This document shows, piece after piece, positions 5,800 through 41,119 of a stretch of 64,000 bases of DNA (position 1 is the stretch's first letter; every line of letters starts with the position of its first letter). The stretch comes from Escherichia coli. Lineage in GTDB: Bacteria > Pseudomonadota > Gammaproteobacteria > Enterobacterales > Enterobacteriaceae. Location of the stretch: assembly GCF_036507355.1 (NCBI RefSeq), contig NZ_AP027877.1. One strand, given 5' to 3'. The notes under the pieces are model-generated. The model ran no database searches, was not told the DNA's origin, and worked only from the letters and a program-made list of their open reading frames with translations. A program made the position numbers and the translations under genes.

Positions 5800-7149
5800 T
5801 TGGCGGGTTTTAACATCAAACATTGGTTTGCAGATGGCGCGTTTCGCACCATTATTCGCAATAGCGCCTGGTTAGGCTCCAGTAATGTCGTGAGCGCCTT
5901 GCTGGGTCTGTTGGCGCTCTCGTGTGCCGGTAAAGGGATGACGCCCGCCATGTTTGGCGTACTGGTGATTGTGCAATCGTACGCCAAGTCGATCAGCGAT
6001 TTTATTAAGTTTCAGACATGGCAGCTGGTGGTTCAGTACGGAACACCAGCATTAACCAACAATAATCCGCAGCAATTTCGCAATGTCGTCTCATTTTCCT
6101 TCTCGCTGGATATCGTCAGCGGCGCGGTGGCGATTGTCGGCGGCATTGCCTTACTGCCATTCCTTTCCCATTCATTAGGTCTGGATGACCAAAGCTTTTG
6201 GCTGGCGGCGCTGTATTGCACGTTCATTCCTTCAATGGCTTCCTCCACGCCGACCGGCATTCTGCGTGCGGTAGATCGCTTTGATTTGATTGCTGTACAG
6301 CAGGCGACGAAACCTTTTCTGCGCGCAGCGGGGAGCGTCGCAGCCTGGTATTTTGACTTTGGTTTTGCGGGTTTTGTTATTGCCTGGTACGTGTCGAATC
6401 TGGTTGGCGGCACCATGTACTGGTGGTTTGCCGCGCACGAATTACGCCGCAGAAATATCCATAACGCCTTCAAATTGAATCTGTTTGAGTCTGCCCGACA
6501 CATTAAAGGCGCGTGGAGTTTTGTCTGGTCAACCAACATTGCCCACTCCATCTGGTCGGCGCGTAACTCGTGCAGCACAGTGTTGGTGGGGATCGTGTTA
6601 GGACCCGCTGCCGCCGGGTTATTTAAAATCGCCATGACATTCTTCGATGCCGCCGGAACGCCAGCGGGTTTGCTGGGTAAAAGTTTTTACCCAGAGGTGA
6701 TGCGTTTAGATCCGCGCACCACCAGACCGTGGTTGTTAGGCGTGAAGTCCGGTTTACTGGCGGGCGGAATCGGTATTCTGGTGGCGCTCGCGGTGTTGAT
6801 CGTCGGCAAGCCGCTCATTTCGCTGGTGTTTGGCGTTAAGTATCTCGAAGCGTATGACCTGATTCAGGTGATGCTGGGCGCAATTGTGATCTCGATGCTG
6901 GGTTTCCCGCAGGAGTCATTGCTATTGATGGCGGGAAAACAGCGCGCTTTTCTCGTGGCGCAAACCATCGCCTCAATCGGCTACATCGTATTGCTGTTCA
7001 TGTTCTGTCATCTGTTTGGTGTGCTGGGAGCAGCGTTTGCTTACTTCGGTGGGCAATGTCTGGACGTGGCGCTCTCGTTAATTCCAACCTTAAAGGCATT
7101 TTTTCAGCGCCATTCCTTGCTTTATAACGCAGCCGGAGAGAAATCCTGA
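5800..7149 (+). CDS. yghQ: Putative polysaccharide/lipid flippase of the MOP superfamily (YghQ); start uncertain, the ORF-track start at 5800 is TTG and an internal ATG lies at about 5938
   Basis: Long multi-pass hydrophobic ORF in the position of yghQ. Confidence 0.7.
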   Translation: MAGFNIKHWFADGAFRTIIRNSAWLGSSNVVSALLGLLALSCAGKGMTPAMFGVLVIVQSYAKSISDFIKFQTWQLVVQYGTPALTNNNPQQFRNVVSFSFSLDIVSGAVAIVGGIALLPFLSHSLGLDDQSFWLAALYCTFIPSMASSTPTGILRAVDRFDLIAVQQATKPFLRAAGSVAAWYFDFGFAGFVIAWYVSNLVGGTMYWWFAAHELRRRNIHNAFKLNLFESARHIKGAWSFVWSTNIAHSIWSARNSCSTVLVGIVLGPAAAGLFKIAMTFFDAAGTPAGLLGKSFYPEVMRLDPRTTRPWLLGVKSGLLAGGIGILVALAVLIVGKPLISLVFGVKYLEAYDLIQVMLGAIVISMLGFPQESLLLMAGKQRAFLVAQTIASIGYIVLLFMFCHLFGVLGAAFAYFGGQCLDVALSLIPTLKAFFQRHSLLYNAAGEKS

Positions 7150-7973
7150 TGATGAGAAAATATTTCCCGCTTGAGGCGAGCGAGCATCTATTTGTTGCGA
7201 TTGAGGAAGATGATGTTGTTGATGCCCAGGTCAGTTTGCCGCCGACTATCGCACTAAGTTGTACCACCGAAATCATCCATGATAATTACGCGTTATGCCT
7301 GCAATTCTGGCTCAATGGCGTTGATCGTCAGGAATTACTTCGTTTAATTCGCAAACAAGCCAAAGGCGATGAGCTGACGACAGACGAGCGTAAACAGTTT
7401 AAATACATGCGAGCGCGCTACAAGCATCTACGTTTTGCACAACGGCTGTATTTAAAAAAGCATCAGGCCAGATTTTTATTCGGCAAAACGACCGTTTTTC
7501 TGGGACGTTTTCAGGACGGATTTCGTAACGGTAAGAAAAATATTGTGTCGTATTACGGCAACCTGTTACGAATTTATTTAAGCTCTCCGGTCTGGTCGTT
7601 GGTGAACTATTCATTACGCCATAGCCAGTTAGAAAGCGTAAGCGGTTTTATTGCCTATCGGCAAAAGCAAATGCATACCCTGAAAGAGATTATTGCCAAA
7701 CCGCGACTAACCGGCAGGGAATTTCATGATGTGCGAAAAATCATCAGCCAGCAGGTTTCTTATTACGACACCTTAAGATCGCTTGATCCTGAAAATAAAG
7801 AGGCGTTACAGATTTCCCGTTTCCTCGCCGCCATTAATGGCCTGATGGGGGATCAACACGACGACATGGTGGCGGATGATATGGAAAACCGCCAGTCGTA
7901 TGATGCACCGGTGGCGCTGGATAGCGATATTCGCCAGCGCTTAGAGCTGCTGATTTCGCGTTTTCCGCTATAA
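7149..7973 (+). CDS. Hypothetical protein (274 aa), translationally coupled to yghQ
   Basis: ATG overlaps the yghQ stop (tgATGatg); no family recognised. Confidence 0.55.
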   Translation: MMRKYFPLEASEHLFVAIEEDDVVDAQVSLPPTIALSCTTEIIHDNYALCLQFWLNGVDRQELLRLIRKQAKGDELTTDERKQFKYMRARYKHLRFAQRLYLKKHQARFLFGKTTVFLGRFQDGFRNGKKNIVSYYGNLLRIYLSSPVWSLVNYSLRHSQLESVSGFIAYRQKQMHTLKEIIAKPRLTGREFHDVRKIISQQVSYYDTLRSLDPENKEALQISRFLAAINGLMGDQHDDMVADDMENRQSYDAPVALDSDIRQRLELLISRFPL

Positions 7974-7981
7974 CCGGAGCA

Positions 7982-8545
7982 ATGATGTCATCTCGTTTGA
8001 TTATTGCGCTGATTATCATGCTCTTAGCCCCGGGTGTGCAGGCACACAATTTCGTCACTGGCAAAACGGTTACCCCTGTTTATATTCAGGAAGGCGGCGA
8101 GCTGCTTCTGAATAGCGACGACGAAATTCACTACCAAAAGTGGAACAGCACACAATTGGCGGGAAAAGTCCGAATTATCCAGTATATCGCCGGGCGTAAG
8201 TCGGCGAAGAAAAAGAACTCACTGTTAATTAAAGCGGTTGAAGCGGCAAACTTTCCGCAGGATCGTTTTCAGCCCACCACCATTGTGAACACCGATGATG
8301 CCATCTTTGGTACTGGCTATTTTGTTGTTGGCAAAATCGAAAAAAATAAACGCCACTATCCGTGGGCGCAATTCGTTATTGACGGCAATGGACAGGGACG
8401 CGTTGCCTGGCGCTTGCCGGAGCAGAGTTCAACCATTCTGGTGCTGAATAAAGCCGGGCAAATTCAGTGGGCAAAGGACGGCAGCCTGACGCCGGAAGAG
8501 GTAGATCATGTTATTGCGCTGGCGCAGAAACTGATCAATGAATAA
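7982..8545 (+). CDS. YtfJ-family periplasmic protein (signal peptide)
   Basis: N-terminal signal peptide MMSSRLIIALIIMLLAPGVQA; motifs WNSTQLAGKVRIIQYIAGR and TTIVNTDDAI resemble recalled YtfJ. Confidence 0.55.
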   Translation: MMSSRLIIALIIMLLAPGVQAHNFVTGKTVTPVYIQEGGELLLNSDDEIHYQKWNSTQLAGKVRIIQYIAGRKSAKKKNSLLIKAVEAANFPQDRFQPTTIVNTDDAIFGTGYFVVGKIEKNKRHYPWAQFVIDGNGQGRVAWRLPEQSSTILVLNKAGQIQWAKDGSLTPEEVDHVIALAQKLINE

Positions 8546-25801: not shown

Positions 25802-25810
25802 GTCAATAAT

Positions 25811-25850
25811 GCCGGATGAAGGTAAATATCATCCGGCTTTCCATTTGTTT
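25811..25850 (+). terminator. Hairpin plus T-rich tract after glcA
   Basis: gccggatga ... tcatccggc stem followed by tttccatttgttt. Confidence 0.4.
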
Positions 25851-26176
25851 GTCGTTTATCTCGCCAGGGAACCGTTTTTACGATTGGCTTCTTAATACAT
25901 AGTCTCCGTTTTACAATGCAAATTGTTTAATATTTATACGTCTGAGCTTCTGTGCTGGTTATAAAGCACCCACTTTCATGAGATCAATTTTAGTATGTTA
26001 TTACATTGCTACGTCTGTTCTTTTCATGACGAATGGCGTTTTTTCTCTTGTTTGTATTTTTCACGAGAGCAATGAGCAGATCAAAATTCCCAAAAACATA
26101 AGATTATTCGCAATGAATCGCCACGGGTTTAACAGACACCTCAGAGTCATTTAAGATGGCTTAAAGAGAGGTGCCC

Positions 26177-26455
26177 ATGAGCGGTAAGCGTTATCCCGAA
26201 GAGTTTAAAATTGAAGCAGTCAAACAGGTTGTTGATCGCGGTTATTCTGTTGCCAGCGTTGCAACACGTCTCGATATCACCACCCACAGCCTTTACGCCT
26301 GGATAAAGAAGTACGGTCCGGATTCTTCCGCTAATAAAGAACAGTCAGATGCTCAGGCCGAGATCCGCCGTCTCCAGAAAGAGCTGAAGCGGGTTACCGA
26401 CGAACGGGACATATTAAAAAAAGCCGCGGCGTACTTCGCAAAGCTGTCCGACTGA
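26177..26455 (+). CDS. IS3-family transposase OrfA (HTH)
   Basis: MSGKRYPEEFKIEAVKQV... HTH and leucine-zipper-like region ending ...KKAAAYFAK, typical of IS3 OrfA. Confidence 0.8.
   Translation: MSGKRYPEEFKIEAVKQVVDRGYSVASVATRLDITTHSLYAWIKKYGPDSSANKEQSDAQAEIRRLQKELKRVTDERDILKKAAAYFAKLSD
26413..26421 (+). promoter_or_regulatory. Candidate programmed -1 ribosomal frameshift site (A-run) for an OrfAB fusion
   Basis: ttaaaaaaag near the end of orfA; orfB lies in the -1 frame relative to orfA. Confidence 0.5.
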
Positions 26456-26511
26456 GGTACGCCTTTATCCGTGACAACACCTGTTGCTGGCCTGTTCGCC
26501 TGCTCTGTCGG

Positions 26512-27324
26512 GTGCTGGATGTTCATCCCAGTGGTTTTTACGCCTGGCTTCAGCAGCCGCATTCACAACGCCATCAGGCAGACCTGAGGCTGACAGGGCA
26601 GATTAAACAGTTCTGGCTGGAATCGGGATGCGTCTATGGTTATCGCAAAATCCATCTGGATCTGCGGGACAGCGGGCAACAGTGCGGAGTGAACAGAGTC
26701 TGGCGACTGATGAAACGTGTCGGGATAAAGGCTCAGGTCGGATACCGGAGCCCGCGGGCACGTAAAGGCGAGGCCAGTATCGTGTCGCCCAACAGGCTCC
26801 AGCGACAGTTCAATCCGGATGCTCCGGATAAGCGTTGGGTAACGGACATAACCTACATCAGGACCCACGAAGGCTGGCTGTATCTTGCCGTGGTTGTTGA
26901 TCTGTTCTCACGCAAAATTATCGGCTGGTCCATGCAATCCCGGATGACAAAGGACATTGTCCTGAACGCACTGCTGATGGCTGTATGGCGCCGTAATCCC
27001 CAAAAACAGGTGCTGGTTCATTCGGATCAGGGCAGTCAGTACACAAGCCATGAGTGGCAGTCGTTCCTGAAATCACACGGCCTGGAGGGCAGCATGAGCC
27101 GTCGCGGTAACTGCCATGATAATGCGGTTGCAGAAAGCTTTTTCCAGTTGTTGAAACGCGAACGGATAAAGAAAAAGATCTACGGAACGCGGGAAGAAGC
27201 CCGCAGCGATATTTTTGATTACATCGAAATGTTTTATAACAGTAAGCGTCGGCATGGTTCCAGCGATCAGATGTCACCGACAGAATATGAAAACCAGTAT
27301 TATCAACGGCTCGGAAGTGTCTAG
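26512..27324 (+). CDS. IS3-family transposase OrfB (DDE/RNase-H-fold integrase core); probably made as an OrfAB fusion starting upstream
   Basis: DDE-type motifs (WVTDITYI..., HSDQGSQYTS, NCHDNAVAESFF). Confidence 0.8.
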   Translation: MLDVHPSGFYAWLQQPHSQRHQADLRLTGQIKQFWLESGCVYGYRKIHLDLRDSGQQCGVNRVWRLMKRVGIKAQVGYRSPRARKGEASIVSPNRLQRQFNPDAPDKRWVTDITYIRTHEGWLYLAVVVDLFSRKIIGWSMQSRMTKDIVLNALLMAVWRRNPQKQVLVHSDQGSQYTSHEWQSFLKSHGLEGSMSRRGNCHDNAVAESFFQLLKRERIKKKIYGTREEARSDIFDYIEMFYNSKRRHGSSDQMSPTEYENQYYQRLGSV

Positions 27325-27342
27325 ATTACCCGTGGCGATTCA

Positions 27343-27555
27343 GTCATCAGTAATTACGCTGTCATCCAGTTTCGCATAACAGATACTGTCATCACCGGCT
27401 TCAATATAGCTGGAAAAATTCTCACTGATGAAGCGGTAGAAAAGGGCACCGAGTACATACTGTTTAAAATCCCATCCATCTACGGAGCCTCTGACATCAT
27501 TGGCAATGGCCCAGATTTGGCGGTGTAGCTCTGCACGCTGCTGAAGGCTTGTCAT
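27343..27555 (-). pseudogene. hsdM: Type I restriction-modification methyltransferase HsdM (type IC, EcoR124I-like), N-terminal 71 codons only, truncated by the IS3-family element
   Basis: MTSLQQRAELHRQIWAIANDVRGSVDGWDFKQYVLGALFYRFISENFSSYIEAGDDSICYAKLDDSVITDD is near-identical to the recalled EcoR124I HsdM N-terminus; the ORF's stop is the terminal TGA/TCA of the IS inverted repeat. Confidence 0.75.
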
Positions 27556-27758
27556 TTTGTATCCTGTTGTATGATTCTTAAGTACTGTTATTGGCCCGAT
27601 TTTATCGTAATTTCATATTGATGACAGGCTTTGTATGTCATACGTTGCACTGAGAGTTCGTTTGCCCGGTTGTGTAGGCAGCGCTCTTTCAGCCAGGTCA
27701 GTAGAAACGTTGCGCTGACGATAAATACTGAAGCCCCAATACCATCGGGGCTGAACGT

Positions 27759-29636
27759 TCAGTCGGTGAGAATTTCTTCATCCGTATCCATTGTGGATGG
27801 TGATGAATCTATTTTTGTTGTAAGAAATACCCGATTCAGTAGTCTTTGCTTCAGGGCGTTTCTTCGCTCATTGTAGAACTCCGGGAAGCGACTGAACTCA
27901 ATATTTTCATCTGAAACTAACAGCATTGATGGCGAATAGTTGTTTGATGGCTGAGATAGCCATTGTTTCAGGGAAGTATCCTGTTTACTTATATTCTGAG
28001 AGTGATTCAGTAAATGAAGATTAGGTATGGTGTCCCAGTGCTCCGGATTTTCATAAAAGCTGAGGTTCTCTGGTGTATTCGCAACATAATCTAATTTTTC
28101 AAGATATTTCTTTGAAAAATGATTTCTTGGGTGAAGGTGATCAATATGAAACACCTCGGTCGGATTCATTTCAGGGAACAGAAGATGCAATAGTGCGCGG
28201 CAACGACCTTCGCCATATCTGATATTGAGAAGGCTTTCGATGTATTCGTCGTCAAATCTGAGGTCTTTATTCGAGCCTTTATATCTGTCAATAATCTTCT
28301 CAAGAGGAAAGTGAATATCTGAAAGACTATTTTTCATTACATCTCTGATACTCGTGAGTAGCGCATCTGCCTGGCTTCCAAAGATCCCTTTCAGAAGTAC
28401 CATGTAAAACCACTGGCTAATTACTGAGCGTTCATTGTGGTTTTTATTCAGGAGATTAATCGTTGTATATAATGGATGTCCACTGGTTTGCTTTTTGTAA
28501 AGCCAGTAGACCACAGGAATGACTGCATTTTTAGATATCAAAGACTGTGGATTGATGCCGAATCGCCTGATAAGAATAAAGGTCTCCTTGATACAGGATT
28601 TTATTTCAGACCATTGTTGTTGTATCTTACCGACCTCCTCTGAAGTGAAGTTTTTTACTTTGAACCGGACGTCAGAGTCAATAAGCATCAGGCTGGTTTT
28701 TAAGAACCAGTCTCTTTCAATATAAAAACCCATTTCATTATTCTGATAAATGTTTTTTGTCAGTTCATCCAGTTCTTTTCTGAAATCACCCTGCCAGTGC
28801 GCTACCGCTATTGACATCAGTAAGTCTGAAAACTCAAGTTTTGTCCCCCCGCTGTTCGTGCGGATGAAAACATCCAGCACATGATCAATGTCCTGACTGC
28901 TCTCATTGAAGTAGTGGATAAGATTCTCAGTTCTTATCTTGGTATAAAGTTTAAGCAGAGTTTTTCTGGAAAATTCACTGGAAATGAGATCTCTTTTTTC
29001 AAGTTCTGGTACGACAACGTTAAATAAAATATCATCAGGCGAATCATGTTGCTCGTATTTGAATATTTCGTGCAGGCAGAACCAGTGATGTTTGTTATCG
29101 GCAAGTGAATCAGTATATTGCTTCTCGGTCAGGAACCTGAAGTTATACTTCATCATGAGCTCATCGTCTGACTTAAGTGGCGCGGTTAAATCGACGTAAA
29201 GCTTTCTGGGTGGCAGGATGCGATCATCCTGTGCCGAAGGCCACCACATCCGGGGCTGTTTATACGCATACGTTCCACACAATCCAATATATAATGATGT
29301 GAGACGCTGCTGACCATCAATCACGGCCTTGAAATCATGAAACCCAGCATTTGTTGCTACGCAGGGGTTTTCTTCATTAAATCGCTGACAGTATTCTTTC
29401 AGGAACTCATAGAATTTGTAATCATTTTTAATACTGGCACTACGGATATCCCACATCATGAAAGAGTTTATCGGGTAGTCTCGCATGATGGAATCAAACA
29501 GCAAACATATCTGACTGCTGCTCCAGACGAACTTCCTCTGAATTGCAGGCAGAAGATAGTGGCGTAAATTAATTGAATCTATCGCTTGTTTTATCGTTAT
29601 TGCTTTTTCATACTGGCCAGCCATCATAAACCTCAT
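27759..29636 (-). CDS. GmrSD-family DUF262 (ParB-like, DGQQR motif) / DUF1524 (His-Me finger) protein; putative type IV modification-dependent restriction endonuclease
   Basis: N-terminal IKQAIDSI...YLLPAIQRKFVWS and IDGQQRLTSL motifs (DUF262); C-terminal FHIDHLHPRNH (DUF1524-like HNH); 625 aa; AT-rich. Confidence 0.75.
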   Translation of the reverse strand: MRFMMAGQYEKAITIKQAIDSINLRHYLLPAIQRKFVWSSSQICLLFDSIMRDYPINSFMMWDIRSASIKNDYKFYEFLKEYCQRFNEENPCVATNAGFHDFKAVIDGQQRLTSLYIGLCGTYAYKQPRMWWPSAQDDRILPPRKLYVDLTAPLKSDDELMMKYNFRFLTEKQYTDSLADNKHHWFCLHEIFKYEQHDSPDDILFNVVVPELEKRDLISSEFSRKTLLKLYTKIRTENLIHYFNESSQDIDHVLDVFIRTNSGGTKLEFSDLLMSIAVAHWQGDFRKELDELTKNIYQNNEMGFYIERDWFLKTSLMLIDSDVRFKVKNFTSEEVGKIQQQWSEIKSCIKETFILIRRFGINPQSLISKNAVIPVVYWLYKKQTSGHPLYTTINLLNKNHNERSVISQWFYMVLLKGIFGSQADALLTSIRDVMKNSLSDIHFPLEKIIDRYKGSNKDLRFDDEYIESLLNIRYGEGRCRALLHLLFPEMNPTEVFHIDHLHPRNHFSKKYLEKLDYVANTPENLSFYENPEHWDTIPNLHLLNHSQNISKQDTSLKQWLSQPSNNYSPSMLLVSDENIEFSRFPEFYNERRNALKQRLLNRVFLTTKIDSSPSTMDTDEEILTD

Positions 29637-30067: not shown

Positions 30068-30781
30068 TTAATTACGATTATTCGTCTGTTTACTCCCGTA
30101 ATGCATTATCTGATGAATAATGTTCATGTGGGGTAAGGCTTCCATAAAGTCAGACTGTTCAATCAGCGAAATGAGTGTGTTATCGATCTCAAACGTTGTA
30201 TCCGGTAATACCTCAACCAGCCTGATTCGGGACAGGGAAATAACGAACACGCCCGATGACGTACATCCGGCAAGAAACCACTCCGCATGGCTGCAAAGCA
30301 GACGATAGGGATGAACGGTATGGCTGACGTTTTCGTCGGTTCTGATACGCACCTTGGTCTGGTTAAGTATGGCGAGCGTTAGTCTGCTGAAATCACCGAA
30401 CAGCGTGGGTTTCTGGCGCGGCTCCGGGAGCATAATCCGGTAGGGTGAAGGGTGCTCCCCGTCAAGCAGAAGGCTCAGCAGTTTGGCATCCATCGCGGGT
30501 AACAGACGGTCAAGATGCAGCAGTCTCGCCAGTATCTTCATATCTCGTTCCGTGCGGCGACGAAAGTAATGTGAGGCAAGCTGATACACGCCGTTGCTCT
30601 GTTCAATATCAAGGTAGGTCAGACGGACGTTGAAATCCCGCCGCAGCGTTCGCGTTGTCACTCCAAATTCTTCTGCCAGCGTCCCGATATGCAGCTTTTC
30701 ACCCTGAAACAAACGGCTCAGGATGATGGAAAGGCGGGTTGCCAGTCTGTCATGTTCGTTTTCTTGTGTTATCAGCGTCAT
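30068..30781 (-). CDS. HTH plus WYL-like domain transcriptional regulator (BrxR/CapW-like candidate)
   Basis: N-terminal HTH_11-like segment (RLSIILSRLFQGEKLHIGTLAEEFGVTTRTLRRDF) followed by a ligand-binding-like domain; sits upstream of a defence gene. Confidence 0.6.
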   Translation of the reverse strand: MTLITQENEHDRLATRLSIILSRLFQGEKLHIGTLAEEFGVTTRTLRRDFNVRLTYLDIEQSNGVYQLASHYFRRRTERDMKILARLLHLDRLLPAMDAKLLSLLLDGEHPSPYRIMLPEPRQKPTLFGDFSRLTLAILNQTKVRIRTDENVSHTVHPYRLLCSHAEWFLAGCTSSGVFVISLSRIRLVEVLPDTTFEIDNTLISLIEQSDFMEALPHMNIIHQIMHYGSKQTNNRN

Positions 30782-30883
30782 ACATCATTTCCGAATTTAG
30801 CCGGGAAATGATGCCAGCAGTAGCGGACAGGATTTGTCCACCCTCTGAAGTTTTTTAAAGTCTGAATACCTTAAATGTAAGTG

Positions 30884-31633
30884 CTAAACGTCAGTATTCT
30901 CAGGTGAATAAAGATGCTTCTGGCGCATGTAGGCAATAAAAATGCAGGATGGTAGCGTCACCCGGTATGCGGGACCGGCTAAATCAATCAGCAGCCAGAG
31001 AGAACTGAGCACCCAGCCCACAGGACCGGCAAAAGCGCCCATGGTACGCGTCAGCATGGCATTTCCTGCAACGGTCAGCCCTCTGCCTAACAGGGCTTTC
31101 GCCACACCATTTGTGACAACAAGTGCCATCTGATAGGCCGCAAACCCGGATGTTTTTATCCCCGCCTGGATTGCCATGGTCAGCAACTCCGGCGTGGGGT
31201 TGCTGTAGCCTGTCTGCAATTCTTCCGCCACGGTCTTTAACTGATCGGGCGTCATCTTCTCAAGGCTTTTCTCCAGGATCTTCATCAGCAGATTCATTTC
31301 AATGGTTTCAACACTGGATTTGTTGTTGTAGTTCACCTTCATTTTATCGCAGGCATCGGTGAGAATTTCCCGGTACGGCACCCCTTTACCCCAGCGGAGC
31401 AGCGTGGCAAAGCTGTTCGCCCCAAACGTCTGAACCTCGGCGGCAATGGCATCCCAGTAGCGCGGGTGGTTGGGCTTGTGTTTTTTATACTGAGGATCAT
31501 AGGTCAGCGTTTCCGTGATGCGTGCCAGTCCGTCTTTCGGATCGCAGATAAGCACAGAAACCAGTAAATCCAGATCGTCACGATGGCAGTGGCGCAGAAA
31601 CTCAAGGTCGGGGTCGTGTCGGTAGGTAGCCAT
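30884..31633 (-). CDS. YaaW-like (UPF0174/DUF3944) protein
   Basis: Resembles recalled YaaW (LEFLRHC..DLDLLV, GPVGWVLSSLWLLIDLAGPAYRVT); 249 aa. Confidence 0.5.
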   Translation of the reverse strand: MATYRHDPDLEFLRHCHRDDLDLLVSVLICDPKDGLARITETLTYDPQYKKHKPNHPRYWDAIAAEVQTFGANSFATLLRWGKGVPYREILTDACDKMKVNYNNKSSVETIEMNLLMKILEKSLEKMTPDQLKTVAEELQTGYSNPTPELLTMAIQAGIKTSGFAAYQMALVVTNGVAKALLGRGLTVAGNAMLTRTMGAFAGPVGWVLSSLWLLIDLAGPAYRVTLPSCIFIAYMRQKHLYSPENTDV

Positions 31634-34247: not shown

Positions 34248-34457
34248 TCGAATATCATGGAAATAATATGTGTCCGTTTTAAGGGCTATTACAGGCTTGG
34301 TGTGTTGGATTTGTTTTTCTTATTACGAACAAATAGCGACTGGCTCAGGCCGGGATTGTTTAGAGACAGATTCAGCATAGATTCGTAAAAATAAAAACTA
34401 TTAGCGCGAGATCCTCTGTTTATGCCGTGACAGTTAACTGATAGGAGGCTTGTTGGT

Positions 34458-35163
34458 TGGATTTGCCCCTATATTTCCAGACACCTGTTATCACTTAACC
34501 CATTACTGGCCCGCTGCCGCAGATATTCCCGTGGCGAGCGATAACCCAGCGCACTATGCGGATGCCATTCGTTATAATGCTCGAACGCCTCTGCAAGGTT
34601 CTTTGCTGCCGTTAACCCGTCTGGTTTGGGCATGATACTTATGTAGTCACGCTTTATCGTTTTCACGAAGCTCTCTGCTATTCCGTTACTCTCCGGACTC
34701 CGCACTGCCGTGTTCTTCGGTTCAAGTCCCAACATCCTGGCGAACTGACGTGTTTCATTCGCCCGGTAGCATGAACCATTATCCGTCAGCCACTCCACTG
34801 GAGACGCCGGAAGCTCGCTGCCAAAGCGGCGTTCCACTGCTCCCAGCATGACGTCCTGTACTGTTTCACTGTCGAAGCCACCCGTTGTGACCCCCCAGTG
34901 CAGTGCCTCACGGTCACAGCAGTCCAACGCGAACGTGACCCGCAGTTTTTCTCCGTTATCACAGCGGAACTCAAACCCGTCAGAGCACCATCGCTGATTA
35001 CTTTCTTTCACAGCCACTCTGCCGGTATGTGCCCGTTTCGATGGCGGTACAGCGGGTTTTCGCTCAAGCAACAGCGCATTCTGGCGCATGATCCGGTAAA
35101 CACGTTTGGCATTGATCGCAGGCATACCATCAAGTTCTGTTTGTCTGCGAAGCAGCGCCCATA
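34458..35163 (-). mobile_element. IS2 fragment (right-hand about 0.7 kb: 3' part of insD plus the right inverted repeat); the left half is missing
   Basis: tggatttgcccctatatttccagacacctgttatcacttaa at 34458-34498 matches the recalled IS2 right IR; the adjacent ORF matches InsD from [10 protein letters not shown] to ...NRCLEI. Confidence 0.85.
34469..35125 (-). pseudogene. insD: IS2 transposase InsD, C-terminal about 218 codons only
   Basis: Translation matches the recalled InsD C-terminal two-thirds; homology extends upstream to about 35163 ([12 protein letters not shown]) and then stops. Confidence 0.85.
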
Positions 35164-35636
35164 ACGCAGCCCTTGCCTTACTGGTGTTTCTGGCCCTGAC
35201 CGGATTACGCCTTGGTGAAACCCGTTATCTTCTGCTTGAGGATATCGACTGGTCCCGTCAGACCATCACTTTGCGAGAAACTAAAAACGGTAAGCTTCGC
35301 TGTGTGCCAGTGGGTGATAAGGCCTTTGTTCTTCTGACTGAGCAGCGCCAGCACTTGGGCGATAAAGGCTGGGTTTTCCCCGGCTATAACACAACTAATC
35401 CGGTTGCAGAACCACGCCGTCTGCAAAAGCGTATATGTGAGAAAGCCGGTATTTCACCATTCACTATTCATGAGATGCGACACACTTTCGCCACGAAACT
35501 TATCGAGAGTGGGGCTGACATCCATACCATCAAAGATTTACTGGGCCACAGCACCATAAAGGTTACCGAGAGGTACCTACATGGCAGCCCGGTGCGCTAC
35601 CACGAGGCCATTAACAAGGCGATGGATACGTTCTAG
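35160..35636 (+). pseudogene. Tyrosine recombinase (phage-type integrase), C-terminal catalytic domain only, N-terminus replaced by the IS2 fragment
   Basis: [17 protein letters not shown] (box I), HEMRHTFAT and LLGHSTIKVTERYLH (box II with catalytic Tyr) motifs; abuts the IS2 fragment. Confidence 0.7.
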
Positions 35637-38365: not shown

Positions 38366-39553
38366 CTACAACGTATCGGGTAACTGAGCGCGGATACGTT
38401 CCGCCAGTAACTGACTGGTGTTCTGTAAGCGCTGAGGATGAAGATGTGCATAACGCTGTGAAGACTGACTGCTACGGTGCCCCAGTTGAGCCTGAACGTC
38501 ATATAGCGTACCGCCGTAGGACACGATGAGGGCGGCAACCGAATGGCGGCAGGTATGGATACACACTTCCTTGTCGAAAATTCCCGCCCGACGCACGATA
38601 CGCTGAAAGGCTTTAACCGGGTTACTCAGCGGCATTCCCTGTTTTTTACCAATAAACAACCACGGATTTCCCCGCTGCGTTGGCAGCGTTCTGATTACGT
38701 CCATCGCCAGTGAGTTAAGGTGAACAATCCGTCCATAGCCATTCTTGGTTTCAGGGAGCCACAGGGTGCGTTTAACCGGGTCAACATGCTCCCACTTTGC
38801 CAGACGCAGCTCATCGCGGCGAAGGCCGGTCAATAACAGCAGTTTGACATAGCGGGCAGCTACAGGGCTGGTATCGTTATCGGCGGAGAGAAAAATACGA
38901 CGAATTTCGTCCTCGGTAAAATAACGCTGTCGGGCGTTGTTCTCCCTGAGTAGCTGTACCACCCTTGCCGGATGAACAGAGGTCATGCTTTGCCTTCCGG
39001 CCCATGTAAAGACGGCTTTAATGAGTACGATGACACGGTTACAGGTAGCCGCTGACAGGGAAGTACTTAACGTCTGCTGAAGGCGCAGAATGCTCGCTGG
39101 TGTGATATCGCTCAGCAGCCTCTGACCAATGGCGGGACGGATATGATCGCGGTAGCGCTGAACATCCTTTCCCCAACTGCGTTTAGCGGATTTTGCCCAT
39201 GGCAGATAATGCTGATTAAAGAGTTCATCGAACGTCAGCTCCATTCTCTTGTTTTCACGCTCCTGCTTAGGGTCAGTGCCGGTGGCAAGGGAACGTTTGT
39301 GTTCTATGGCAATCTGACGGGCAAGATTGACGTCCACTTCAGGCCAGTGACCAATGGCGATGGCGCGTTTTCGTCCATGATAGAGGTAGCGGAGCAAAAA
39401 CTTTTTACGACCTTCTTTTCTGCTGACCAGACACTTGAGGCCGGAAATCTCGGTGTCGCTGTATTCGGCATCGGTGCTGCGTGCATCTGATGTGTTAGGG
39501 GGCAGTGATTTAATGAGCTGATTAGTAAAACGGAAGCGTTTGGGAGTGGACAT
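38366..39553 (-). CDS. int: P4-type tyrosine integrase (DUF4102 arm-binding N-domain plus catalytic domain), apparently intact
   Basis: N-terminal ...LKCLVSRKEGRKKFLLRYLYHGRKRAIAIGHWPEVDVNLARQ (DUF4102-like); C-terminal HTCRHSVA...LGHRSSQSSQRYAH catalytic motifs; strong SD (aggagg) before the ATG. Confidence 0.85.
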   Translation of the reverse strand: MSTPKRFRFTNQLIKSLPPNTSDARSTDAEYSDTEISGLKCLVSRKEGRKKFLLRYLYHGRKRAIAIGHWPEVDVNLARQIAIEHKRSLATGTDPKQERENKRMELTFDELFNQHYLPWAKSAKRSWGKDVQRYRDHIRPAIGQRLLSDITPASILRLQQTLSTSLSAATCNRVIVLIKAVFTWAGRQSMTSVHPARVVQLLRENNARQRYFTEDEIRRIFLSADNDTSPVAARYVKLLLLTGLRRDELRLAKWEHVDPVKRTLWLPETKNGYGRIVHLNSLAMDVIRTLPTQRGNPWLFIGKKQGMPLSNPVKAFQRIVRRAGIFDKEVCIHTCRHSVAALIVSYGGTLYDVQAQLGHRSSQSSQRYAHLHPQRLQNTSQLLAERIRAQLPDTL

Positions 39554-40066: not shown

Positions 40067-41119
40067 ATGGGGATCATCGTACGAATTCTTAAAGCTAACC
40101 ATGGCGATTGCATTTTGGTGAGCCATGAAAGCGGTTCAGGCACTCTCAACTTGCTCATTGATGGGGGACCTGCGACGACATTCAGGTATGGCATTAGGCA
40201 GCGCTATTCTGGAGCATTGAGTAACGCTCTCGATGATCTGAAAGGAAAGGGGCAAAACATTGATCTGGCTATCCTGACCCACATTGATGATGATCACATA
40301 AATGGTTTTATCAAGGCATTCGAAAGTCCAAACTATCTGCGTCAGCTGGTTAAATCGATCTGGTTCAATTCTTCGAGGTTAATCACACATCATTTTAATG
40401 TGCCTGAAATTTGTGAAAATAATATTTTCTTGCAGGAAGTTTCCCCTGAAACTAGCGTTAAACAGGGGCAAGAACTTGAGGCATTACTTGATGAAATCGG
40501 ATGTGTGCGAGCACCGCTCATTATGGCAGGGCAAATCTACAAAGTAGGCCCGATTACTTTAACAGCACTTTCACCTGAACGAAGACAACTCGAACAGCTT
40601 TTGCATAAGTGGCCAACGGAAGTAAGTTCAGCTGACACTTCTTCATATGAGAATGATTATCACCGTTCATTGGACGAAATTTGGGCAGATGATAGATTTG
40701 AATCTGACTCATCTATTTATAATGGAAGCTCAATTGCATTTTTACTGGAAACAGATGACAAAAAAATGCTTTTTTTAGGAGACGCCAATGACCAAGTTGT
40801 TACAAAAAATTTAAGAGCATTGGGCTATAGCGAAACAAACAAGTTGAAGCTGGATCTGGTTAAAGTTTCGCATCATGGTAGTCAATACAACACAAGCAAC
40901 GAATTTCTTTCAATACTAGATTCTCCATGCTTTGTTATTTCAACCAATGGTTCGAAGCATGGTCTTCCTAATAAAAGGACTATTGCAAGGATCTTAAAGG
41001 AAACAGATGGTGATATTTATTTTAATTACAGCAATGTAATTACTCCGCTGCTTTTAGCGCATGAAGCTGAGAGCTATTCTTCTCGTCTAAAAGTGCTAGG
41101 TGATGAGATTAAATTCTAA
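40067..41119 (+). CDS. Metallo-beta-lactamase-fold hydrolase (candidate nuclease/effector); gene 1 of the candidate defence operon
   Basis: MBL motifs HGDC, THIDDDH, SHHGS; 350 aa; AT-rich. Confidence 0.7.
   Translation: MGIIVRILKANHGDCILVSHESGSGTLNLLIDGGPATTFRYGIRQRYSGALSNALDDLKGKGQNIDLAILTHIDDDHINGFIKAFESPNYLRQLVKSIWFNSSRLITHHFNVPEICENNIFLQEVSPETSVKQGQELEALLDEIGCVRAPLIMAGQIYKVGPITLTALSPERRQLEQLLHKWPTEVSSADTSSYENDYHRSLDEIWADDRFESDSSIYNGSSIAFLLETDDKKMLFLGDANDQVVTKNLRALGYSETNKLKLDLVKVSHHGSQYNTSNEFLSILDSPCFVISTNGSKHGLPNKRTIARILKETDGDIYFNYSNVITPLLLAHEAESYSSRLKVLGDEIKF

What the first reader, a model, noticed from the sequence alone, without database searches (positions are those of the whole stretch)
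27343..27555. Decayed type IC restriction-modification system: only the first 71 codons of an EcoR124I-like hsdM survive, cut by an IS3-family element
The fragment is a near-verbatim match to the recalled EcoR124I HsdM N-terminus and ends precisely at the IS inverted repeat. The rest of hsdM, hsdS and any hsdR are absent, so the island once carried a type I R-M system next to the GmrSD-like gene, a typical defence-island pairing. Its loss through IS activity shows ongoing turnover of defence content.
Basis: partly seen in the sequence, partly recalled or inferred. Interest (0 to 1): 0.5.

Follow-up and report, generated by a model that had tools for sequence, protein, structure and literature searches.

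The report
IS-truncated remnant of type IC hsdM
The 213-bp stretch is a dead stub of an EcoR124-type restriction-modification methylase gene; the rest of the system was lost in a deletion that ends at an insertion sequence, which is an ordinary kind of gene decay in E. coli defence islands.

Summary

- **The fragment.** Window 27343-27555 (minus strand) encodes 71 codons. They are 69/71 identical to EcoR124II HsdM residues 3-73 (E 2.7e-42) and 71/71 identical to an intact hsdM in E. coli GPEC1189.
- **The junction.** The reading frame runs straight into the right inverted repeat of a 1,229-bp IS3-family element (26114-27342). The terminal TCA of that element supplies the stop codon.
- **What is missing.** No other part of HsdM, HsdS or HsdR is encoded anywhere in the 64-kb window.
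- **What used to be there.** Sister pheV-type islands in other E. coli carry, in the same order, a BrxU-like (GmrSD-family) gene, then hsdM, hsdS and hsdR (all full-length EcoR124 family), then 2-3 more genes and the island's attR.
- **The deletion.** The IS has no target-site duplication. Its other side is chromosomal DNA 312 bp downstream of glcA. So a deletion of at least 9.1 kb removed the R-M system and the island end, not a simple insertion.
- **A parallel case.** E. coli LR-50 shows an independent IS1-mediated deletion joining the glcA flank to hsdM.

This is an ordinary IS-truncated pseudogene of a kind that annotation pipelines already label. It has low novelty and low interest.

The parts
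27343..27555 (-). hsdM 5' remnant: codons 1-71 of an EcoR124-family (type IC) methyltransferase subunit. It holds only part of the HsdM_N domain and has no catalytic domain.
   Evidence: 69/71 aa identical to EcoR124II HsdM residues 3-73, E 2.7e-42. Pfam HsdM_N; 71/71 aa and 208/213 nt to intact hsdM of GPEC1189; aligns to L004 hsdM starting exactly at 27343.
26114..27342 (+). Complete 1,229-bp IS3-family insertion sequence: orfA 26171-26455, orfB about 26512-27324, IRL 26114-26151, IRR 27305-27342. Its terminal TCA (27340-27342) provides the stop codon of the hsdM stub.
   Evidence: 38-nt IRs. HTH_Tnp_1, rve, NF033516; 99.8-99.9% identical copies in many E. coli, annotated as IS3 family transposase; the CDS in four fetched copies is annotated 'programmed frameshift'; no target-site duplication here (left ..TTCGCAA, right GTCATCAG), whereas copies elsewhere have 3-4 bp duplications.
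25802..26113 (.). Chromosomal DNA downstream of glcA, forming the left deletion junction. It is collinear with E. coli O145:H28 RM13516 up to base 26113 and diverges where the IS begins.
   Evidence: 100% coverage at 99.4% identity in O145:H28 genomes; the alignment breaks exactly at 26113/26114.
27556..27758 (-). Intact intergenic region upstream of hsdM, with one weak sigma-70-like site at 27627-27599 on the minus strand. The stub may therefore still be transcribed into the IS, antisense to the transposase. This is an inference.
   Evidence: one promoter-like match, not above shuffle expectation; one nucleotide difference (27619) from GPEC1189 in this interval.
27759..29636 (-). Intact BrxU-like (GmrSD-family, DUF262) type IV restriction gene, the former upstream neighbour of hsdM. 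It survives the deletion.
   Evidence: Pfam GmrSD_N, 1.9e-33. PADLOC HEC-05, 766 bits. BrxU 7P9K, E 5e-99, residues 9-600 against 2-575. The DGQQR and DHLHP motifs are visible in the translation.
46891..46975 (-). tRNA-Phe (pheV, 46900-46975) and its 3' end, the island's attachment site. In the sister island a second copy of this roughly 58-bp sequence marks the distal end (attR). That copy is missing from the window.
   Evidence: tRNA-Phe. L004 18039-18095 matches window 46891-46948 and matches nothing else in the window.

Best explanation
The 213 bp are a non-functional remnant (pseudogene) of the hsdM gene of an EcoR124-family type IC restriction-modification system. That system once lay at the distal end of a roughly 30-kb pheV-integrated defence island, in the order BrxU-like gene, hsdM, hsdS, hsdR, 2-3 further genes, attR.

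A 1,229-bp IS3-family element became the endpoint of a deletion that fused hsdM codon 71 to chromosomal DNA 312 bp downstream of glcA. Two routes are possible. One is homologous recombination between two directly oriented IS copies, one in hsdM and one near glcA. The other is an IS-promoted adjacent deletion. Either way, methylase, specificity and nuclease subunits were lost in one step, together with the island end and whatever lay between the island and glcA.

Shown: the identity of the fragment, the exact junctions, the lack of a target-site duplication, the absence of the rest in the window, and the intact arrangement in sister islands.

Inferred: the route of the deletion, its full size, and that the stub has no function.
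For: - **Fragment identity:**
- **IS identity and boundaries:**
- **No target-site duplication at this copy.** Simple insertions of the same or a related IS elsewhere show 3-4 bp duplications: ACA, GGT, GTTT.
- **Left flank.** It is collinear with the glcA-downstream DNA of O145:H28 up to the IS.
- **Absence of the rest.** Only HsdM 1-71 is found in the window by tblastn. The island-distal DNA, L004 18096-27175 (about 9.1 kb, including attR), has no blastn match in the window.
- **Intact sister islands.** YZ22MPE54, BKQWHE, AHM9C68I and GPEC1189 have BrxU-like, hsdM, hsdS and hsdR in the same order and orientation. The GPEC1189 products are full-length EcoR124 HsdM, HsdR and HsdS.
- **Independent parallel.** E. 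coli LR-50 has glcA, IS1A, hsdM nt 1-362, then the BrxU-like gene, with different breakpoints on both sides.
- **No post-truncation decay.** The five nucleotide differences from GPEC1189 are clustered and synonymous, which fits allelic variation.
Against: - The window is only 64 kb, so a displaced copy of the rest of the system elsewhere in the genome cannot be excluded.
- No read-level data are available to rule out an assembly collapse across IS copies.
- The two deletion routes leave the same scar and cannot be told apart.
- No complete E. coli genome in the collection, and no GTDB species representative, carries this exact junction. The event therefore cannot be placed on a phylogeny.
Confidence: 0.9

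Rival explanations
1. Assembly artefact. The genome really has two copies of the IS, one near glcA and one inside an otherwise complete hsdM. The assembler collapsed them into one, which falsely removed the DNA in between.
For: The IS is a multi-copy element in E. coli, with up to 15 places per genome. The single IS with non-matching flanks is what a collapse would also produce.
Against: - The window is 64 kb of contiguous sequence that also crosses a truncated IS2, which suggests a finished or long-read assembly.
- A genuine deletion of the same kind exists in the complete genome of LR-50.
- Collapsed repeats normally break contigs rather than join distant loci.
Confidence: 0.04
2. Simple insertion followed by relocation. 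The IS inserted into hsdM, and the 3' part of hsdM with hsdS and hsdR was moved to another chromosomal site rather than lost. The route could be inversion, or excision and re-integration. An inactive or partly active system would then persist elsewhere.
For: IS3-family insertion into an EcoR124-like hsdM with both halves retained does occur: STEC309 has a 4-bp duplication. Sequence outside the window is not available.
Against: - An inversion between two IS copies would leave an IS on both sides of the inverted segment. It would place hsdM 3' sequence next to the glcA-side IS. Instead a single IS directly joins the glcA flank to hsdM 5'.
- Nothing of hsdM 3', hsdS or hsdR lies within 26 kb to the left or 36 kb to the right.
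Confidence: 0.04
3. The 71-codon ORF is retained because it is functional. It might act as a small protein made from the preserved hsdM start and upstream region. Alternatively, its transcript, reading into the IS antisense to the transposase, might dampen transposition.
For: - The start codon and the 203-bp upstream region are intact, with one nucleotide difference from GPEC1189.
- All five differences within the stub are synonymous.
- Stubs of similar length (74 and 120 codons) occur in other strains.
Against: - The synonymous differences are a clustered allelic patch also compatible with recent truncation.
- The stub lengths differ between strains (71, about 74 and 120 codons), as expected from arbitrary breakpoints.
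- Only about a third of the HsdM_N domain is present (profile positions 1-45 of 135).
- The only promoter-like match is no better than shuffled sequence.
Confidence: 0.02

Closest known systems
EcoR124I/EcoR124II type IC restriction-modification system (HsdM; PDB 7BST and related entries)
   Same: The 71 residues are 97% identical to EcoR124II HsdM residues 3-73. The intact allele in the sister island GPEC1189 matches EcoR124 HsdM, HsdR and HsdS over their full lengths.
   Different: Only 71 of about 518 codons remain, and the methyltransferase domain, hsdS and hsdR are missing from the window. The ancestral system was chromosomal, on a pheV island downstream of a BrxU-like gene, rather than on plasmid R124. 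The plasmid origin of EcoR124 is from my own knowledge.
IS-truncated hsdM pseudogenes already annotated in E. coli genomes (PGAP: 'type I restriction-modification system subunit M N-terminal domain-containing protein; incomplete; missing C-terminus')
   Same: Same class of lesion. LR-50 has IS1A next to hsdM nt 1-362 at the same chromosomal locus. AR_0085 and BEN5202 have the same IS type 11 bp deeper in another allele. STEC309 has a related IS inside hsdM.
   Different: The breakpoint (codon 71) and the junction to the glcA flank are specific to this sequence. No complete E. coli genome in the collection has the same junction.
BrxU / GmrSD-like type IV restriction enzymes embedded in or next to type I R-M, BREX and Hma systems (Picton et al. 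2021, as cited in bioRxiv 10.1101/2024.01.29.577857)
   Same: The neighbouring 625-aa protein aligns to BrxU 7P9K over nearly its full length and to PADLOC HEC-05. It has the same orientation as the former hsdMSR, which matches the reported embedding pattern.
   Different: The partner R-M system has been deleted here, which leaves the BrxU-like gene on its own.

Membership tests
Type IC (EcoR124 family) HsdM | N-terminal domain sequence homologous to EcoR124 HsdM | tested here: met
   69/71 identical to 7BST_D residues 3-73, E 2.7e-42. Pfam HsdM_N above its cut-off.
Type IC (EcoR124 family) HsdM | SAM-dependent N6-adenine methyltransferase catalytic domain present | tested here: not met
   The ORF stops after codon 71 at the IS. 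tblastn of the 518-aa HsdM finds only residues 1-71 in the window. It is therefore a remnant of a member, not a functional member.
Type I R-M system (complete) | Linked hsdS and hsdR genes | tested here: not met
   No tblastn match for HsdS or HsdR at E<=0.01 anywhere in the 64-kb window. Both are present in sister islands.
IS3 family insertion sequence | orfA (HTH) and orfB (DDE/rve) in overlapping frames joined by programmed -1 frameshift | tested here: met
   HTH_Tnp_1 and rve/rve_2/rve_3. NF033516 covers profile positions 1-85 in orfA and 110-369 in orfB. Copies 99.6-99.9% identical are annotated 'programmed frameshift'.
IS3 family insertion sequence | Imperfect terminal inverted repeats ending 5'-TG...CA-3' | tested here: met
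   38-nt arms at 26114-26151 and 27305-27342, TGAATCGCC...GGCGATTCA.
IS3 family insertion sequence | 3-4 bp target-site duplication flanking the element | tested here: not met
   The flanks are ..GCAA and GTCA... Other copies show ACA, GGT and GTTT duplications. The absence here is what a deletion or recombination ending at the IS would leave. It does not count against IS3 membership.
GmrSD/BrxU family (the neighbouring gene) | N-terminal DUF262 domain with DGQQR motif, plus a C-terminal HNH-type (DUF1524) nuclease domain | tested here: inconclusive
   GmrSD_N 1.9e-33, and DGQQR is present in the translation. The alignment to BrxU spans residues 2-575 of 587, and a DHLHP motif is visible. However, the Pfam C-terminal domain did not score at E<0.01.

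The most novel reading that the evidence does not exclude
The first ~330 bp of EcoR124-type hsdM may be a preferred target for this group of IS3-family elements. Three independent insertions, all in the same orientation, were seen within about 110 bp: the window, AR_0085/BEN5202, and STEC309. That would make IS-driven knock-out of type IC R-M a recurrent, semi-targeted route to losing restriction barriers. Alternatively, the conserved short N-terminal stub and its antisense read-through into the IS may have a regulatory role. My queries contained only hsdM nt 1-213 or nt 1-80, joined to the IS in that one orientation. They could only recover nearby same-orientation insertions, so the clustering is most likely ascertainment bias.
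Probability: 0.04. Interest if true: 0.4.

Novelty: already known. Interest (0 to 1): 0.12.

Why it matters
The finding documents one more case of defence-island turnover. A complete type IC R-M system, together with the island's distal end, was removed in one step at an IS. The adjacent BrxU-like type IV enzyme, a JukA-like gene and a Lamassu system were kept.

The strain should have lost one methylation signature and one barrier to unmodified foreign DNA. That is useful for annotation: the locus should be called a pseudogene, and no type I system should be predicted here. It is also useful for interpreting the strain's methylome or transformability.

It does not reveal any new mechanism.

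Tried and rejected
1. **Candidate hsdS/hsdR at 40067-46063.** The 1,043-aa and 439-aa ORFs looked like the missing hsdR and hsdS displaced by inversion. Pfam and PADLOC show they are a Lamassu/ABC-3C system (LmuA x2, LmuC, LmuB), not R-M.
2. **Same junction in other genomes.** I searched 5,426 complete E. coli genomes with a 1.95-kb query and a 160-bp query. I also searched GTDB species representatives with an exact 35-mer. None has this junction. The near hits turned out to be independent events at other positions.
3. **A reference genome with glcA, the intact island and pheV, to size the deletion exactly.** The pheV-glcA interval is rearranged or differently filled in every genome inspected. 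Only a minimum of about 9.1 kb can be given.
4. **An ISfinder-style name for the IS.** The libraries give only 'IS3 family' and PGAP gives no specific name. I do not assign one from memory.
5. **An insertion hot spot in hsdM.** I considered this and set it aside, because my queries could only detect insertions near the 5' end in one orientation.
6. **The WYL regulator as a BrxR homologue.** There is no sequence match to any PDB chain at E<=0.01, so I make no claim.

Full report
**Observation.** The minus-strand ORF 27340-27555 encodes MTSLQQRAELHRQIWAIANDVRGSVDGWDFKQYVLGALFYRFISENFSSYIEAGDDSICYAKLDDSVITDD. Against all PDB chain sequences, the best match is the EcoR124II M protein (7BST_D), residues 3-73, at 69/71 identical and E 2.7e-42. 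Pfam HsdM_N scores 37.2 bits against a cut-off of 24.5. NCBIfam TIGR00497 (hsdM) matches profile positions 1-66. PADLOC type I MTase models agree. As DNA, the 213 bp align end to end with hsdM genes on more than 1,000 plasmids at 80-92.5% identity. They also align with intact chromosomal hsdM genes in E. coli, the closest being GPEC1189 at 208/213 nt and 71/71 aa.

**The element that cuts it.** An inverted-repeat search finds 38-nt imperfect arms at 26114-26151 and 27305-27342, reading TGAATCGCCACGG...CCGTGGCGATTCA.
- These arms delimit a 1,229-bp element.
- The element has an HTH_Tnp_1 orfA (26171-26455) and an rve-domain orfB (about 26512-27324).
- Together the two ORFs cover the NCBIfam IS3-family transposase model.
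- Copies 99.8-99.9% identical occur in many E. coli chromosomes and plasmids. Four of them that I fetched are annotated as IS3-family transposase with programmed frameshift.
- The hsdM reading frame ends at base 27343, and the stop codon is the complement of the IS terminal TCA.

I could not assign an ISfinder name with the tools available, and I do not give one from memory.

**Not a simple insertion.** Five other copies of this IS or a close relative were inspected. Three have 3-4 bp target duplications: ACA in L010, GGT in L011 and GTTT in L002. The window copy is flanked by ...TTCGCAA on the left and GTCATCAG... on the right, with no duplication. The left flank is the DNA immediately downstream of glcA. 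It is collinear with E. coli O145:H28 RM13516 (99.4% identity) up to base 26113, 312 bp past the glcA stop, and diverges where the IS starts. The IS therefore bridges two sequences that are not neighbours in any genome inspected.

**What is missing.** I translated HsdM, HsdS, HsdR and three further distal genes from a sister island (YZ22MPE54, locus L004) and ran tblastn against the whole window. Only HsdM residues 1-71 were found, at 27555-27343.
- blastn shows the window collinear with that island from 27343 rightwards to pheV. The alignment starts exactly at hsdM nucleotide 213.
- The sister island continues for another 9.1 kb (L004 18096-27175): the rest of hsdM, then hsdS, hsdR, a beta-flower protein, a 5'-nucleotidase and a hypothetical gene.
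- It ends at a 58-bp repeat of the pheV 3' end (L004 18039-18095, matching window 46891-46948). That repeat is the island's attR.
- None of this is in the window. The deletion is therefore at least about 9.1 kb, plus whatever lay between the island and glcA.

The upper bound cannot be fixed, because the pheV-glcA interval differs in every genome examined:
- O145:H28 has a fec island, a gentisate pathway and an Flp pilus cluster there.
- YZ22MPE54 and AHM9C68I have IS1-associated rearrangements there.

**The ancestral system.** Four sister islands were inspected: GPEC1189, YZ22MPE54, BKQWHE and AHM9C68I.
- They sit at pheV or at other attachment sites.
- All carry, in the same orientation, a DUF262 gene followed by hsdM (518 aa), hsdS and hsdR (1,038 aa).
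- The GPEC1189 proteins match EcoR124 HsdM (1149 bits, 1-518 against 3-520), HsdR (2125 bits, 1-1037) and HsdS (544 bits) over their full lengths. The lost system was therefore type IC in the strict, EcoR124-family sense.
- In one search, 114 of 5,426 complete E. coli genomes have the DUF262 gene joined to the hsdM 5' end.

**The neighbour.** The surviving 625-aa gene (27759-29636, minus strand) is a full-length homologue of BrxU (PDB 7P9K, E 5e-99). It also matches PADLOC HEC-05 at 766 bits. Payne and colleagues equate HEC-05 with BrxU. They report that GmrSD-like genes are frequently embedded in type I R-M systems in the same orientation (bioRxiv 10.1101/2024.01.29.577857).

**How it most likely happened.** This part is inference. 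A single IS with non-matching flanks, joining a chromosomal site to the middle of a gene, is the scar left by two processes:
1. Recombination between two directly repeated IS copies.
2. An IS-promoted adjacent deletion.

The sequence cannot tell these apart. An inversion is excluded, because it would leave two IS copies and would place hsdM 3' sequence next to the glcA-side copy.

Losing hsdM, hsdS and hsdR together avoids the self-restriction hazard of losing modification alone. That point rests on established knowledge of R-M systems and was not tested here.

The stub shows no degenerative change. Its five differences from GPEC1189 cluster at 27409-27433 and are all synonymous (71/71 aa). 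That pattern looks like an allelic recombination patch rather than decay, so there is no sign of long residence as a pseudogene.

**Parallel events.**
- **LR-50.** This E. coli strain has glcA, then IS1A, then hsdM nucleotides 1-362, then the same BrxU-like gene. The IS is different and both breakpoints are different. It is an independent deletion with the same outcome at the same locus.
- **AR_0085 and BEN5202.** These carry the same IS type, in the same orientation, 11 bp deeper in a different EcoR124-like hsdM allele, in an unrelated island. Again the 3' part is missing.
- **STEC309.** This strain has a related IS (the joined IS-plus-hsdM match is 89.6% identical) inside hsdM at about nucleotide 320. 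Both halves are retained and there is a 4-bp duplication.

These cases show that IS hits on this gene family are common. The apparent clustering near the 5' end probably reflects my queries, which contained only that part of the gene.

**Rivals.**
- Assembly collapse across IS copies cannot be excluded without reads. It is unlikely, given a contiguous 64-kb window that also crosses a truncated IS2, and given the genuine parallel in a complete genome.
- Relocation of the rest of the system elsewhere in the genome cannot be tested beyond the window.
- A function for the stub is not supported. It holds only about a third of the HsdM_N domain. Stub lengths differ among strains. The one promoter-like site upstream is no better than shuffled sequence.

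**Verdict.** This is an ordinary IS-associated pseudogene of a well-known family, and annotation pipelines already label the equivalent features in other genomes. Novelty: already known. Interest: low.

Noticed in passing
window 34457-35161 (and ORF 35106-35636): A truncated IS2 (TnpB residues 84-301) replaces about 2.6 kb that the sister island YZ22MPE54 has (L004 34293-36883). The lost DNA held a hypothetical gene and the 5' part of an internal tyrosine integrase. Only the integrase C-terminal remnant is left. This is a second IS-associated deletion in the same island.
   Followed up: partly
window 40067-46063 (+): A Lamassu / ABC-three-component defence system lies between the island integrase (38366-39553, minus strand) and pheV. 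It has two LmuA-type effector genes (a metallo-beta-lactamase-fold protein of 350 aa and a trypsin-like protein with CTD4 of 439 aa), LmuC (191 aa) and LmuB (1,043 aa). It sits on the tRNA side of the integrase, which is an unusual position for island cargo.
   Followed up: partly
window 30068-31633 (-): A JukA-like gene (DUF3944/YaaW, PADLOC JukA 240 bits) and an HTH-WYL regulator lie upstream of the BrxU-like gene. I did not look for a JukB partner. The WYL protein has no sequence match in the PDB at E<=0.01.
   Followed up: no
L013 (E. coli LR-50) 6573-8213: An independent IS1A-mediated deletion joins the glcA flank to hsdM nucleotides 1-362 at the same locus. It has a different IS and different breakpoints from the window.
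   Followed up: yes
L006/L007 9060-9304; L002 9001-10553: The same 1,229-bp IS type abuts a different EcoR124-like hsdM allele 11 bp deeper, in the same orientation, in AR_0085 and BEN5202. A related IS sits at about nucleotide 320 of hsdM in STEC309 with a GTTT duplication. This could be an insertion hot spot, but it is more probably ascertainment bias from my queries.
   Followed up: partly
window 27409-27433: Five of the seven differences from GPEC1189 across 2,358 nt fall within 25 bp of the hsdM stub, and all five are synonymous (71/71 aa). This looks like a short recombination patch from another allele rather than pseudogene decay.
   Followed up: partly
window 25802-26113 versus other E. 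coli: Only 37 of 5,426 complete genomes, the listed ones all O145 lineages, share the DNA immediately downstream of glcA. In O145:H28 RM13516 this DNA leads into an Flp/Tad pilus cluster and a gentisate pathway. The pheV-glcA interval is filled differently, or rearranged by IS1, in every genome inspected.
   Followed up: partly
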